A stretch of DNA of 64,000 nucleotides from Podarcis erhardii (taxonomy: Eukaryota). The DNA is taken from NCBI GenBank assembly GCA_964252035.1, contig OZ176201.1, one strand, 5' to 3'. The position numbers are program-made. This document shows, piece by piece, positions 6,001 to 12,000 of this stretch. How positions within the stretch are numbered: the first letter of the stretch is position 1; each line of letters opens with the position of its first letter.

Positions 6001-9000
6001 GTCAGACAATATTAAGTGTACCTCTGAATGTTTCTGCTAATGGTGCGAGTTTATTGAGCCTGTTCATGCACAAAGTGTTTATCCCCTTCATTGTTTTGGG
6101 ATAAGGGAATGAGCACGCGGCCATTCCAGATTTCAAAAGACATTCCAGGTATGCAACTAATGGTTACTACAAAACTGTGGCTTTTAGCAGATTCTCTTTC
6201 TCAAAGAGCTTTAAATGTGCCTAATGGAAGAAGAGACTTGATGGAAATTTGTTCCCTCTGTTTAGAGAAAGATTTCTACTTGGTCAGCTTTATTTTTGTA
6301 GTAGTATGTCAGTGCACTAAGTCTGAGCACAGCTTCTTGGAGGAGGAGCTTGAGTAACAAGACATCCTTTTTTTTCTTTTCTTTTTTTACTGTGCTGTGT
6401 GCCTTAATGTGAACTGCTCACTACATTGTAAACTATAAGGAAAAGCAGAATAAACTGGAATAATTGCAAGATTGTAATATTGTATCCCATAACTTATTAA
6501 AAACCATGAATGTTGGCTTCATGAAATAAAATGTGCATGTTAAAAACAAACTCAGGTGGGCTTCTAAGTATTTTTTTTGGTTTTGCCATGACTCATGTCT
6601 GTCTAAATGGACCAACTTGTATTGTATCTGCATCAAATATCATTCCTGCTGGTGGTTTTTGTTTGGAAACTGAAACTTTGAAATAGCATAAGGCAACAAA
6701 GTGCCTTACAATAGTACGGAGATCTTGAACATGGACCATAATTGGCAGTGGTAAAAGCAGATGTGGTCTTTCGTTCATCATGCATGATTTTAAGCATACA
6801 GGCTCCCTAGCTCTCAAGACTGTCTCTGTGGCTGAGTTAGGTATGCTTTGTCTTTTCCACAGATTTTTACACTAAATATTCTAGGTCTTGTGCTGTGAAA
6901 ACAAGCTAGCCCTTGGTCAAGTATTTAGCTCTTAAGCCTCCTACTTGTTTGCATGGCTCTGCCGAAGTCTACCCCTAATCCCTAAAATCATTTGGTTCTT
7001 GCCATGCCATTGAAAGGCACTCTGGAGATAGGAATTTTGGGGAGGGGGTGTAGTTCAGTGGTAGAGTATACACTTTGCATTCAGAGGAACCCAGGTTCAA
7101 ATCCTGGCTTCTCCAAATAAAGACCAGGTAGCAAATTATGTAAAATGCTTCTTTTTTCAGAGCTGCTGTCAGTTGACCGTAGCCAGCTTTCCCCTAACCC
7201 AGTGCCTTCCTGTTTTTTGGACTACCAACTCATATGCACCCCAGTTATCATGGCCAATGGTTGGGATGGTGGGAGCTGGTAATCCAAAACATTGGGAGGG
7301 CACCAGGTTGAAAAAGTCTGAGCTGTGTTGACATGGAAGCAGCTCATCAGCATTTTATTCAGGAGTTTTTCCAACCTGCTCTGGAAATGCCAGGAATGGA
7401 ACCCAAGATTTCTGCTTGCATAGAATGCACCCTTCTTCTGAACTATGGGTGATGGGGACAGTGTATGTGGAATTTATCAGTCTTTGTAACTAGTGCTACC
7501 ATCGAACCAGAAGTAATGATTGCTGTTTTTGTTTTGTTTGCAATGTTCTTTTTTCGGTGCTAATATTCTTCCACTGTGGCCCTAGCTTAAAAGGGCTGTG
7601 CCATGTTTTCTAATAGATGTCAGATTCTCACATCTGTGGGCAGTTAATAGCTAGAGCTACATACAAAAGCTTTCACTGTTTTCCATGCCACTCCTAGGCA
7701 CACACCACAGTTTCAAAGTTCAGTGTTATGAATTTCTTCAGAATATTCTCTCTCCTCTTTATATTAGTTTACTCACTATGTACTCTTTGAAACTTGGGTG
7801 GAGGCCTGGCATTTGAATCTTATAATTTATGGCTTAACTCCAGAGGTCTAAAACTTTCCCATTTCTTTATGGGTGTGGTAGTTCTTGCATTGCGATGAAA
7901 GCATTAGAGGAGGAAACCAAATGGCTGGCATGGAGTTCATCTCTATACAGCTGCCTTACCCATCTCTGTTACAAATGCTTTTGATTCTGTTATTTTAAGA
8001 TGTTTTGCTTTTAAAGGGCAACTGCTCAAATTAAGACCATGGGACAAGAAAGATAGAGGGAGTACCTTTGCATGCATTTTAATTTCCTCTCTGTAGCTGT
8101 GTGCTATATACATTTCTCTGAAAAAGATTTATCCCCCTACTGTGCTACCTTTCAGCTATCACTATGACTACTGCGTTGTAAGGCAGGGGGCTTTTAAGAA
8201 GGTGTTTGAATTCTTTGTGTAACACACAGAGAGCCAGTCAAACCTTGCCTGCTTTGGGGCTGTATTACGCACCCAAACCCCAGGGTGGGTTTTGAGCAAG
8301 GGCACACAGCCAGTTTTGTGGTTTCAGAGAGAGAAATCACAGGCACCACATGGAATGGTAGCCAATCTAACTTTTTGTGGCTTCCGCTGAGTTTGGCTTT
8401 GATTTTCTTTGGGTTGAGTCCAATGCAACTTAAAATTGGGGAAATGAAGATTGGCAAATCTCCTGCTTGCTTGTGCACAACTTGCATTCAAGATGGACTG
8501 CTAACTTCCAACCAAGTGTTTTTGTTAAATCACTATTTGTGTGCATGTGCACACACTCGTGTGTGTCTCGGGTGTAAATATTCTGTAGTCAGCAAAAGTG
8601 GGAAGGGTGAGGAGGGCAAGGTTATTCTTTATTTTCAGTTTGATTTACGAGCTCTGCAGTTACAAAGCCCCAACTAAGTTGTAAGATAACTAATTCCACC
8701 TGTCGGGCAATTGTAGCTGCAAAGAAGCCCACCTAAGGTTTTCAACATTTCACCAAAAACAAACCCTTCCAATGCAGCTTTATGCCTTGTAGTCACCTAG
8801 TTGCAGGAGGTGTGTGTGTTAGTGGGAGAGCGAGAGCGCACACAGGCCCTGTTCAGAGGCTGTAATTTGAGAATAGCTTCACTGGCCCTTTTGTGTATGT
8901 TTCCTTGGACACCAGAGGCAGGAAGTAACATTTGCCGAGCACACGGTGGTCACCACACAGACTCTGCCATCTCTCTGGGGCTATGAGGGGCCTGCTGACC

Positions 9001-12000
9001 ACGCGGGAGCAAGATGGCTGGAGGGAGCTTATTAACAAGGAGGCCACCTGCAGGGTCAACTGGAAGGCAAAATACGGTCACAAATACCCCAGGCGGGTGA
9101 CTGACTATGGGGTCGCCAAAAGGAAGTGTTTCTTGCCTGCCATCTGCCCTCCTGAGAAGAGTGCAAGCTCCCTCCGGTGTCAAGAAGTAACTCTGCAAAA
9201 AGAGGACAGGCGGCAGCTGTCAGGGAAGGAGGAGAAGCAGGAGGAGGAAGGCCCAAGCCTTCAGGAGCCTCTTCCCGAGATGAGGGTTCCCACACCACAG
9301 ACAACTCAGCTGCTATACCAGGGCTTTTCCCATGAAGGCAAAGGGAGGCATCACTACCTCAAACAGAGGAAGATGAAGAGCCCTGAGGAGAAATTCTGCT
9401 ACCCAGTGCTGTCGTCGTGGGAATATGGCTGGCGCTTAGGTAAGAGTAATGAACCAGTAATGGCTATTGCAAGGATCCCAGAGCATGAGAGGCATGCAGT
9501 AGGCTTAAGAGAATGCTTCACCAGGGACGACGAAATATTTCAAGTTGCTTCTGCCTCCCCCGCTTTAATTGTCTTTGTGAGGGGAAATTATTAGGGTGGA
9601 ATGCAGTGTAGCGCTGTCTGTTGTTGTCCATATGTAATCTCCCCCGCCATGACATGCTTAAATTTGTTGTAGGACTTCCCCTAATCTCTAGCAGATTTGG
9701 GAAGGCACAGGGCACTAACAGGATGTGTCCCTGACAGCTGTCTGTCTTTCCTTATGCACACATGCCAGCTCCTGAACAGTTTTAAATATGGTGGCCCACT
9801 TACACATTGGCAAAAAACCCGAGGAAATGTATCTCCTCAAAAGAGGCCAGAAATCAGCGCAGTATTTAGCATAATGTAATTTATATGTTTGCAAATTTGA
9901 CAATAATTAGTATAGGTCAAATGGGAAGACTGACCAGGTATCAGTTGTTGATTGACAACTCCATTGACGTCTGTCTCTTTTGGAGCAGACTGTTCTTCAG
10001 TAGAGGACTGTCCTCTGGAAAGTAGGCCACATGGTCACCCTCCCTTTTAAGCTTTGTTCAGAAATGCATTTTTGAGGCGCAGGAGCTAAATTGTGCCTTC
10101 CGCTTGCTCTAGTTGCCCTATGCCTGCCTTTCTATCTGTTACCACTTAGCAGCCTTCCTATTCCATTCTGCATAAGCCCCCAGCAAACCACTGAATTGCC
10201 AGCTACGCATTATTCCGTGAGTCACGGTGACAGAAGCCAATCTAGTTCTGTATGCCAGAGTCTGAATAATGTTTCATTTGCTTACATGGTGACTTTGCTC
10301 TGAGCGTAAGTGTTAAGAAGAAATACAAAACAGTAAGAACTAAATAAAGTGAAGCGCAAGCTGGTGGTGTTTGCCTGGGATGACGCCACCTTTACAGGAC
10401 CCACTTCAGAGTCCAAATCCCCACGCAGTGATGAACCTTTGGTCAGGCACCATCTTTCAGCCTAACCTGCCTCAGAGGGTGGTTGCGAGGATAAAATGGA
10501 AGGAGGGGGAAGCCACATTTAAGCTCCTTGGAGGAAATGACTGCCTGCCTGCCCCCTGAATGGTAGAAATTAGGCAGGTAAAGCTTTTAAGATAAAATGA
10601 GGGCAAGGGTGCACCTGTTGAATTTCTGTATAGTCTGCTGCTTTTACAGACAGGGAAAAAGTTTGCTATCATCTAAGCCAGGCATAGGCAAACTCTGCCC
10701 TCCAGATGTTTTGGGACTACAACTCCCATCATCCCTAGCTAACAGGACCAGTGGTCAGGGATGATGGGAGTTGTAGTCCCAAAACATCTGGAGGGCCAAG
10801 TGTGCTTATGCCTGAGCTAAGCATTTATATCTTTTATTAATGGTGGAACTAAGCTGCTGTTTTGTGCATTATTGTTTTATGGAGCAGAGTTTTGTTCAGT
10901 GGGAGCTATAAAGCACTGCAGCTCTTCAGATCTATCAGCCTCATTCCAAAAGACCCAAACAGGTTTTAGTGCTTTCTCCTTCAGTTAAGAGCACATGTTG
11001 GCTTTAGCCAATTGTAAACGCAGGCAACTGAACGATAATCTTGGTCATTTGATTGCCCTTTTTACCCATTGTTGTCTTTTTAATTGTATATATTGCTTGT
11101 TTTATGTTGCTATGGCCGTTGGCNNNNNNNNNNNNNNNNNNNNNNNNNNNNNNNNNNNNNNNNNNNNNNNNNNNNNNNNNNNNNNNNNNNNNNNNNNNNN
11201 NNNNNNNNNNNNNNNNNNNNNNNNNNNNNNNNNNNNNNNNNNNNNNNNNNNNNNNNNNNNNCTGGGCAGCCCTGGCAAGGCGATGTAGTCATCACAGCTA
11301 CAGGTGGTGAACTCATGATGATTTGTATGGCAGTCAGTTAAATGCCTGGTGATGATTTCACCAAATCCAGGAAATGGATGACAGGCTTATACTGCTCCTT
11401 GCTTATCAGTTTACAAATTGTGACTGTTCTGTAAGGGAATCTGAAAATCACATCATGTGGCAGCTGGCATTCTGCTTTAGGTTATCTTAGGCATGCAAAT
11501 TTTAACGCACAATTACACATTTATTTTTCCAGGAGACGTGGTTAAGGACATGAGGACACCAATCCATGGCAAATCCCGAATTGTAAAGGATACTTTCTAC
11601 TTCAAAAATGGAATCTTCTATCATCCATCAAAAACTGACAAGCTGTCATGAATATTATTGCTAACTGACATGTGGAAATGTTTGTGCAATGTTGCCTAGC
11701 ATGGATATTTGTTGTGGTATTGGATCAGACAACCCTCTATAATTACTTCCCTCCATAATTACTCCATTAGGTTTAGAACTTGCTTCTAGCCTTCCTTTCC
11801 CTGTAGCCTGTAGCACTGCTTCTTGTGTAATAGATGCACAGCACCTATCATTCTGGCAGAGTAACTTACTGGGTTCTGTGTCAAGGATGTGTACACCACC
11901 TTGCATACATTTGGGACCAGAGTCTGATTTAGAGCCAATTAATTCATATGGCTGTTGTGATGTTTCTTGTGGTAGTTTCCTTTTGTGGTGACACCTTGAA

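What the first reader, a model, noticed from the sequence alone, without database searches (positions are those of the whole stretch)
8983..11651. SPMIP1/ATP6V1FNB-like gene downstream of FLNB: candidate retained whole-genome-duplication paralogue
Seen: an intact two-exon, 191-aa gene with canonical splice sites, starting about 2.4 kb after the FLNB polyA signals on the same strand. Established (recalled): human SPMIP1 lies just downstream of FLNC and ATP6V1F on 7q32; FLNA, FLNB and FLNC mark paralogous regions; I recall no such coding gene between human FLNB and DNASE1L3. Inference: this is the FLNB-linked ohnologue, kept in squamates and lost in mammals, and encodes a little-studied sperm or ciliary microtubule inner protein. 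Its middle region (acidic KEEKQEEEGP) differs from the Pro-rich linker of human SPMIP1.
[Added by the scan's program, not by the reader: the finding's places include an assembly gap (unread letters, written N; its length is only estimated) at 11124 to 11261. Whether the letters on both sides are continuous or in frame is not known: test that first.]
Basis: partly seen in the sequence, partly recalled or inferred. Interest (0 to 1): 0.65.

Follow-up and report, generated by a model that had tools for sequence, protein, structure and literature searches.

The report
SPMIP1-family gene beside filamin B
An intact small gene for a sperm-tail microtubule inner protein sits just after filamin B here, whereas mammals keep their copy after filamin C, so it is probably an old duplicate rather than the same gene.

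Summary
Bases 8983-9439 and 11533-11651 (+) form a 576-nt, two-exon reading frame (191 codons plus stop) with a GTAAG donor and a pyrimidine-tract/AG acceptor. The only run of N (11124-11261) lies inside the intron. Searched separately, exon 1 matches Pfam SPMIP1 (PF22589) at 105.7 bits, profile 17-94. Exon 2 matches profile 95-122. The two also abut in sea-urchin SPMIP1 (chain residues 4-159 and 161-188), so no coding exon is hidden in the gap. The neighbours are FLNB upstream and DNASE1L3 downstream on the opposite strand. In cattle and sheep, SPMIP1 lies at FLNC-ATP6V1F-SPMIP1-KCP. The gene therefore belongs to a known family of sperm doublet-microtubule inner proteins but sits at the paralogous filamin locus. 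Synteny favours a retained genome-duplication paralogue. The decisive tests (a gene tree, and this animal's own FLNC locus) could not be run because no vertebrate sequence collection was open. "Lost in mammals" rests on one goat gene list and recall, and "kept in squamates" on this one window. It is a new member of a known kind, of moderate interest. The joined 191-aa model was neither searched nor folded.

The parts
8983..9439 (+). Coding exon 1 of the SPMIP1-family gene (152 codons plus the first base of a split Gly codon). It encodes the N-terminal conserved segment, the variable mixed-charge linker and most of the SPMIP1 domain.
   Evidence: frame, ATG, donor. PF22589, 105.7 bits, E 2.4e-30, profile 17-94 of 122; 8snb_1i E 3e-22, 8otz_A E 2.8e-15, 9v10_Ia E 4.6e-14.
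9415..9429 (+). Codons 145-149 (S-W-E-Y-G), which I read as the SNYG-type tubulin-contact motif of the module.
   Evidence: the alignments place it on the matching block of the sea-urchin and bovine chains. The motif name and its role come from passages of PMC10973386. The mapping onto this gene is my inference.
9440..11532 (+). Phase-1 intron (2093 nt as assembled). It contains the assembly gap 11124-11261 and a 58-nt-arm inverted repeat at 10679-10814.
   Evidence: The gap length is only estimated, so the intron length is uncertain.
11533..11651 (+). Coding exon 2 (last two bases of the split codon, 38 codons, TGA). It encodes the C-terminal end of the SPMIP1 domain plus a 10-residue tail.
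   Evidence: PF22589, 26.6 bits, E 7.6e-06, profile 95-122 of 122; 8snb_1i residues 161-188, E 1.2e-05.
12374..12379 (+). First AATAAA after the stop codon. It is a candidate polyadenylation signal, which would give a 3' UTR of about 0.7 kb.
   Evidence: This is a consensus match only, with no transcript evidence.
4879..5061 (+). Upstream neighbour: last coding exon of FLNB (Ig repeat 24, stop at 5059-5061). Polyadenylation signals lie at 6449-6530.
   Evidence: 2eed_A Filamin-B 121.9 bits (53 of 60 identical by my count), 1v05_A Filamin C 97 bits, 3cnk_A Filamin-A 93.7 bits..
31895..32053 (-). Downstream neighbour: an exon of DNASE1L3 (DNase gamma).
   Evidence: 7kiu_A 81.7 bits, E 1e-22, against 52.7 bits for the best DNase I chain.
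34810..34932 (-). Downstream neighbour: a second DNASE1L3 exon. These coordinates are the matched part of the open segment 34699-35028.
   Evidence: the only hit is 7kiu_A, E 6.3e-09, chain residues 105-145.

Best explanation
This is an intact protein-coding gene with two coding exons. It belongs to the SPMIP1 (ATP6V1FNB) family and lies between FLNB and DNASE1L3.

Its product is most likely a microtubule inner protein of sperm-tail (possibly also ciliary) doublet microtubules. The conserved N-terminal segment and the C-terminal SNYG-type module would bind the luminal tubulin surface of the B-tubule. The poorly conserved mixed-charge middle would be a flexible linker.

Relative to mammalian SPMIP1, which lies at FLNC-ATP6V1F-SPMIP1-KCP, it occupies the corresponding place in the paralogous filamin locus. 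It is therefore most likely the FLNB-linked duplicate from the early vertebrate genome duplications, not the positional orthologue.

Shown: the gene model, the family and the neighbours. Inferred: location in the axoneme, expression and the age of the duplication.

The confidence of 0.65 is for the whole statement. Taken apart, I put the gene model and family at about 0.95, the axonemal inner-protein role at about 0.8, and the duplication reading at about 0.7.
For: Gene and family:
- The frame and splice sites hold.
- PF22589 scores 105.7 bits against a cut-off of 32.1 for exon 1 alone. Exon 2 continues the profile exactly at position 95.
- The best solved relatives are SPMIP1 chains from sperm doublet microtubule structures: 8snb_1i, 8otz_A and 9v10_Ia.

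Mechanism:
- In sea urchin, SPMIP1 is a B-tubule protein with 48-nm repeat on protofilaments B07-B10. Residues 2-35 and 104-187 are modelled (table passage in PMC11834534).
- The blocks conserved here align to chain residues 4 to about 45, 104-159 and 161-188. These are the ordered segments, while the divergent middle matches the unmodelled part.
- The SNYG module contacts tubulin (PMC10973386 passages).
- SPMIP1 is listed among the sperm-specific doublet proteins in mouse (PMC13066092 passage).

Locus:
- FLNB is upstream and DNASE1L3 downstream.
- There is only one N run. Exon 1 is therefore contiguous with FLNB, and exon 2 with DNASE1L3, even if the gap hid a misjoin.
- The cattle and sheep order is CALU, OPN1SW, CCDC136, FLNC, ATP6V1F, SPMIP1/ATP6V1FNB, KCP, IRF5.
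- The filamin loci share further paralogous neighbours: OPN1LW/MW, FLNA and DNASE1L1 at Xq28, OPN1SW and FLNC, FLNB and DNASE1L3 (this window).
Against: - No transcript, protein or population data exist for this gene, so expression and selection are unshown.
- No second vertebrate copy was seen in any one genome, and no tree was built. A three-taxon comparison (this gene, mammal, sea urchin) cannot separate orthology from old paralogy.
- The gene resembles sea-urchin SPMIP1 more than bovine. Exon 1 scores 82.6 against 59.9 bits. My count is 26 of 45 against 19 of 45 identical over the same 45 columns of the module. Exon 2 has no bovine or other mammalian hit at E up to 10. This fits old paralogy, but it fits fast evolution of the mammalian gene equally well.
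- That FLNA, FLNB and FLNC are genome-duplication paralogues is recalled knowledge. Two literature searches found no paper stating it.
- The single-sequence structure model was too poor to add anything.
Confidence: 0.65

Rival explanations
1. It is the orthologue of mammalian SPMIP1. One lineage moved the single gene from one filamin locus to the other, by translocation or small segmental transfer.
For: The family and domain order are the same as in bovine SPMIP1. No second copy was seen, although only this 64-kb window could be examined (tblastn of both exon peptides found only themselves).
Against: A random relocation would have to land in the few tens of kb directly downstream of another filamin paralogue, on the same strand. 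I estimate this at far below 1 in 1000, as an inference and not a computed value. The flanks are otherwise the conserved FLNB-DNASE1L3 pair.
Confidence: 0.15
2. It is an unexpressed or decaying relic whose reading frame happens still to be open.
For: No expression data exist. There is no CpG island at the start (CpG observed/expected about 0.3). The first AATAAA lies 0.7 kb after the stop.
Against: 191 codons are open across two exons with good splice sites. My count is 31 of 56 and 18 of 28 residues identical to a sea-urchin protein in the two module blocks. That is hard to keep without selection. CpG-poor promoters are usual for testis-specific genes (general knowledge).
Confidence: 0.07
3. 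It is a retrocopy or recent segmental duplicate of a gene located elsewhere in this genome.
For: The window is rich in retrotransposon remnants.
Against: The gene has an intron that splits the domain cleanly. No poly(A) tail or flanking direct repeats were noticed. There is no second copy in the window.
Confidence: 0.03

Closest known systems
Sea-urchin SPMIP1 / ATP6V1FNB (PDB 8snb chain 1i, 188 aa)
   Same: It is the best hit for both exons (E 3e-22 and 1.2e-05). The N termini are in register (residue 4 to residue 4). The layout is the same: a conserved N-terminal segment, a variable middle and a C-terminal module. My count is 31 of 56 and 18 of 28 identical in the two module blocks.
   Different: The middle linker is not alignable with confidence. 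This protein carries 10 extra C-terminal residues. The genomic context of the sea-urchin gene was not examined.
Mammalian SPMIP1 (bovine 8otz chain A, 176 aa; 9v10 chain Ia, 177 aa)
   Same: It is in the same Pfam family and has the same SNYG-type block ending in Y-G-W. It is found in sperm doublet microtubules.
   Different: It is weaker than the sea-urchin match (59.9 and 56 bits against 82.6). The bovine linker is Pro-rich, whereas this one is mixed-charge. The exon-2 peptide finds no mammalian chain at E up to 10. The locus differs: FLNC-ATP6V1F-SPMIP1-KCP in cattle and sheep against FLNB-this gene-DNASE1L3 here.
Other SNYG-module inner proteins: SPMIP11/TEX49, CIMIP1/LLC1, CFAP144/FAM183, CFAP90/FAP90
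   Same: There are weak matches over the same C-terminal block: PF22593 20.1 bits, PF14945 18.8 bits, PF14886 12 bits, and FAP90 chain 9e2g_3S at E 0.62. The Atlas clusters mix these families. They share the module described in PMC10973386.
   Different: All score below their Pfam cut-offs (25.9, 27.3, 28.9), while SPMIP1 is far above its own. These are relatives at superfamily level only.

Membership tests
SPMIP1 (Pfam PF22589) | Match to the family profile above the curated cut-off | tested here: met
   exon 1 alone scores 105.7 bits against a cut-off of 32.1. Exon 2 alone scores 26.6 bits (below the cut-off by itself, E 7.6e-06).
SPMIP1 (Pfam PF22589) | Whole domain present in order, with nothing missing at the intron or gap | tested here: met
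   profile positions 17-94, then 95-122; sea-urchin chain residues 4-159, then 161-188.
SPMIP1 (Pfam PF22589) | SNYG-type motif with its associated helix region, plus a conserved N-terminal segment | tested here: met
   alignments: S-W-E-Y-G-W lies on the matching block of the sea-urchin and bovine chains, and residues 4-40 align with sea-urchin residues 4-40. The motif definition comes from PMC10973386 passages. Helices are not confirmed, because the structure model has mean pLDDT 44.2.
SPMIP1 (Pfam PF22589) | Sits in the B-tubule lumen of sperm doublet microtubules | not testable with these tools
   Known for sea urchin, cattle and mouse from the passages read. Nothing is known for this species.
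SPMIP1 (Pfam PF22589) | Testis or spermatid expression | not testable with these tools
Positional orthologue of mammalian SPMIP1 ('ATP6V1F neighbour') | Lies beside ATP6V1F, between FLNC and KCP | tested here: not met
   The neighbours here are FLNB and DNASE1L3. None of the 10 longest open segments on the + strand between 11.6 and 34 kb had a Pfam hit, though that scan is insensitive.
Genome-duplication paralogue (ohnologue) of mammalian SPMIP1 | Flanked by paralogues of the genes that flank the mammalian gene | tested here: met
   A filamin lies directly upstream on the same strand in both cases. Wider paralogy of the filamin loci rests on the gene lists and on this window.
Genome-duplication paralogue (ohnologue) of mammalian SPMIP1 | Duplication node at the base of vertebrates in a gene tree, or both copies present in one genome | not testable with these tools
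Genome-duplication paralogue (ohnologue) of mammalian SPMIP1 | No copy in the mammalian FLNB-DNASE1L3 interval | tested here: inconclusive
   The goat chr22 window lists 15 protein-coding genes, all named, none of this family (PMC12686773 passage). This is annotation only and for one species. Human is recalled. No mammalian DNA was examined.
SPMIP11, CIMIP1 (LLC1), CFAP144 (FAM183) | Match above the family's Pfam cut-off | tested here: not met
   20.1 against 25.9 bits, 18.8 against 27.3, and 12 against 28.9.

The most novel reading that the evidence does not exclude
Mammalian SPMIP1 and this reptile gene may be reciprocal survivors of one ancient duplication. Mammals would have kept only the FLNC-linked copy, and this lineage only the FLNB-linked one. 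Genes now given the same name would then not be orthologues. The FLNB-linked copy would be the slowly evolving, ancestral-like form, since it is closer to sea urchin than the mammalian protein is.
Probability: 0.3. Interest if true: 0.45.

Novelty: new member of a known kind. Interest (0 to 1): 0.3.

Why it matters
SPMIP1 is a recently named and little-studied component of the sperm-tail microtubule lumen.

If the FLNB-linked gene is a separate ancient duplicate, two things follow. Comparative work on sperm axonemes would need to treat the mammalian and sauropsid proteins as paralogues. The filamin loci would also gain one more marker for reconstructing the pre-duplication vertebrate chromosome (filamin, SPMIP1, a DNase I-like gene).

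This is a tidy piece of gene-family history. It is not a new kind of system, and nothing about the predicted protein departs from what the family already shows.

Tried and rejected
- Structure: AlphaFold2 on the exon-1 peptide alone gave mean pLDDT 44.2 and pTM 0.23, with only helices 7-31 and 37-46. That is too poor for a fold search, so none was run.
- ESM Atlas: the top clusters mix LLC1, SPMIP1 and FAM183 at 0.92. This is family-level support only and says nothing on orthology.
- Stop-free open segments instead: 0 of 10 + strand segments (11.6-34 kb) had a hit. Among 10 minus-strand segments (30-47 kb), the one hit was a chance-level zinc-ribbon match. That scan missed even the true DNASE1L3 exon, so it cannot exclude other genes.
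- Second copy in the window: tblastn of both exon peptides found only themselves, with the next best E at 1.6.
- Literature on filamin duplicates: 0 papers held FLNA, FLNB, FLNC and 'ohnolog' together. Two irrelevant papers came up for filamin, genome duplication and synteny.
- Literature on the family: 30 papers hold ATP6V1FNB or SPMIP1*. By title, none concerns reptiles or duplication. I read passages in 8 of the 30.
- Read-through of exon 1 to the stop at 9594 (220-aa ORF): rejected, because the extra tail matches nothing and the family profile continues in exon 2.
- Genome-contig scan: not used, since it holds only bacteria and archaea.
- Supplementary tables of the cited papers were closed. 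They may list family members by species.
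Full report
**1. The observation**

- Reading the sequence and checking by script confirm the model. The ATG is at 8983. 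Exon 1 is 8983-9439 (457 nt), with donor GTAAGA at 9440. The acceptor is AG at 11531-11532, behind a T-rich tract. Exon 2 is 11533-11651 (119 nt, TGA).
- In total that is 576 nt, or 191 codons plus stop, with a phase-1 intron whose split codon reads Gly.
- The ORF list shows that the frame of exon 1 would otherwise run on to 9594. That extra tail matches nothing.

**2. The gap, tested first**

- The window has a single N run, 11124-11261. It lies inside the intron, and no reading frame of the model crosses it.
- The exon-1 peptide matches Pfam SPMIP1 (PF22589) at profile positions 17-94. The exon-2 peptide matches positions 95-122 of 122.
- In the sea-urchin SPMIP1 chain 8snb_1i they cover residues 4-159 and 161-188. 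The one residue between is the split codon.
- Nothing coding is missing, and only the intron length is uncertain.
- The joined 191-aa protein was not searched or folded.

**3. What it is**

- Exon 1 alone scores 105.7 bits (E 2.4e-30) against a family cut-off of 32.1.
- The related families SPMIP11, LLC1/CIMIP1 and FAM183/CFAP144 all fall below their cut-offs.
- Among solved structures, four distinct chains matched exon 1 at E up to 1. Three are SPMIP1 chains: sea urchin 8snb_1i at 3e-22, bovine 8otz_A at 2.8e-15, and 9v10_Ia at 4.6e-14. The fourth is FAP90 at 0.62.
- Exon 2 found the sea-urchin chain (1.2e-05) and one chance-level enzyme hit. It found no mammalian chain at E up to 10.
- By my count from the printed alignments, the module block is 26 of 45 identical to sea urchin and 19 of 45 to bovine over the same columns. 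Exon 2 is 18 of 28 identical to sea urchin.
- tblastn of both peptides against the window found only themselves.

**4. How it most likely works**

- The sea-urchin protein is a B-tubule inner protein with 48-nm repeat on protofilaments B07-B10. Residues 2-35 and 104-187 are modelled (table passage in PMC11834534).
- The family carries the SNYG module, whose motif and helix contact the luminal tubulin surface (PMC10973386 passages).
- In mouse, SPMIP1 is listed among the sperm-specific doublet proteins (PMC13066092 passage). PMC12808527 gives only testis qPCR.
- The blocks conserved in this gene coincide with the ordered segments of the sea-urchin protein.
- Residues 46-96 (10 acidic, 10 basic and 5 Pro of 51) correspond to the unmodelled linker. 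In the bovine alignment that linker is Pro-rich.
- I therefore infer a luminal B-tubule protein anchored at both ends, with a free linker. This is inference by homology. A single-sequence structure model was too poor to help (mean pLDDT 44.2).

**5. Surroundings**

- Filamin exons run on the + strand up to a stop at 5059-5061.
- The last exon scores 121.9 bits with Filamin-B (53 of 60 identical), against 97 with Filamin C (44 of 60) and 93.7 with Filamin-A.
- On the minus strand, two exons match DNase gamma (DNASE1L3). For 34699-35028 it is the only hit (E 6.3e-09). For 31895-32053 it scores 81.7 bits against 52.7 for DNase I.
- Because there is only one N run, exon 1 is contiguous with FLNB and exon 2 with DNASE1L3. 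The linkage stands even if the gap hid a misjoin.
- Between the gene and DNASE1L3, none of the 10 longest + strand open segments had a Pfam match. That scan is insensitive, because its minus-strand counterpart missed the true DNASE1L3 exon.

**6. Comparison with mammals**

- Gene lists in two livestock papers give the order CALU, OPN1SW, CCDC136, FLNC, ATP6V1F, SPMIP1 (or ATP6V1FNB), KCP, IRF5, TNPO3. These are cattle chromosome 4 (PMC12188200 passage) and sheep chromosome 4 (PMC12924876 passage).
- A goat window holding FLNB, DNASE1L3, ABHD6, RPP14 and PXK lists 15 protein-coding genes, none of this family (PMC12686773 passage).
- At Xq28 the order is OPN1LW/MW, then FLNA and EMD, then RPL10 and DNASE1L1 (PMC9271157 passage).
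- So opsin, filamin and DNase I-like genes recur together around the three filamins. An SPMIP1-family gene lies directly after the filamin in two of the loci, each in a different lineage.
- The simplest reading is an ancestral filamin-SPMIP1 linkage that was duplicated with the genome. Mammals kept the FLNC-linked copy, and the FLNB-linked copy is kept here.
- A relocated orthologue would need to land by chance in the matching place of a paralogous locus.
- That the filamins are genome-duplication paralogues is recalled. Searches for a paper saying so found none.

**7. What stays open**

- No vertebrate protein or genome collection was open. I could not build a tree, look at this animal's FLNC locus, or see how widely the FLNB-linked copy occurs.
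- The closer likeness to sea urchin than to cattle fits old paralogy, but it fits fast evolution of the mammalian gene equally well.
- Expression and selection are untested.
- Of the 30 papers holding ATP6V1FNB or SPMIP1*, none concerns reptiles or duplication by title. I read passages in 8 of them. Those show only that the name is used for cnidarian and mollusc genes. Supplements were closed.

**8. Verdict**

The gene is real and is a clear member of a known family. It is a new member of a known kind, with interest 0.3.

Noticed in passing
window 10679-10814: A near-perfect inverted repeat sits inside the intron, with 58-nt arms that are 93% complementary and 20 nt apart. It looks like a small foldback (MITE-like) element.
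   Followed up: partly
window 7044-7115 (+), continuing to about 7300: Rfam reports a tRNA-like stretch (39 bits) between FLNB and the gene. ARAGORN calls no tRNA there. It is most likely the head of a tRNA-derived SINE.
   Followed up: partly
window 52393-55239 (+): This is a LINE-type retrotransposon remnant and probably the 'virus-like stretch' of the operators' note. It has a 339-aa ORF1-like frame and an endonuclease domain (Exo_endo_phos, E 2.2e-11). No reverse-transcriptase domain was found in the 3 ORFs scanned. The second reading frame is not continuous. I did not count its breaks. Described only. It lies more than 40 kb from the finding.
   Followed up: partly
window 48927-49824 (-): A partial reverse-transcriptase ORF (RVT_1, E 2.3e-14, profile 101-194 of 205). 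It is a truncated retrotransposon fragment. Described only.
   Followed up: partly
window 57604-57927 (+) and 60544-61092 (-): Two ORF remnants share a long similar residue block (seen) and have no Pfam match. They are probably 3' ends of a dispersed LINE family. That family assignment is recalled, not tested.
   Followed up: no
window 62001-64000: A GC-rich stretch (GC 0.59, against 0.36-0.52 elsewhere in the window) with many overlapping GC-biased ORFs. It is likely a CpG island at the 5' end of the next gene. By recall, ABHD6 follows DNASE1L3 head to head in mammals. Not tested.
   Followed up: no
window 18001-18381 (+): A 120-aa acidic, Pro-rich ORF with no Pfam match. Its origin is unknown.
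   Followed up: partly
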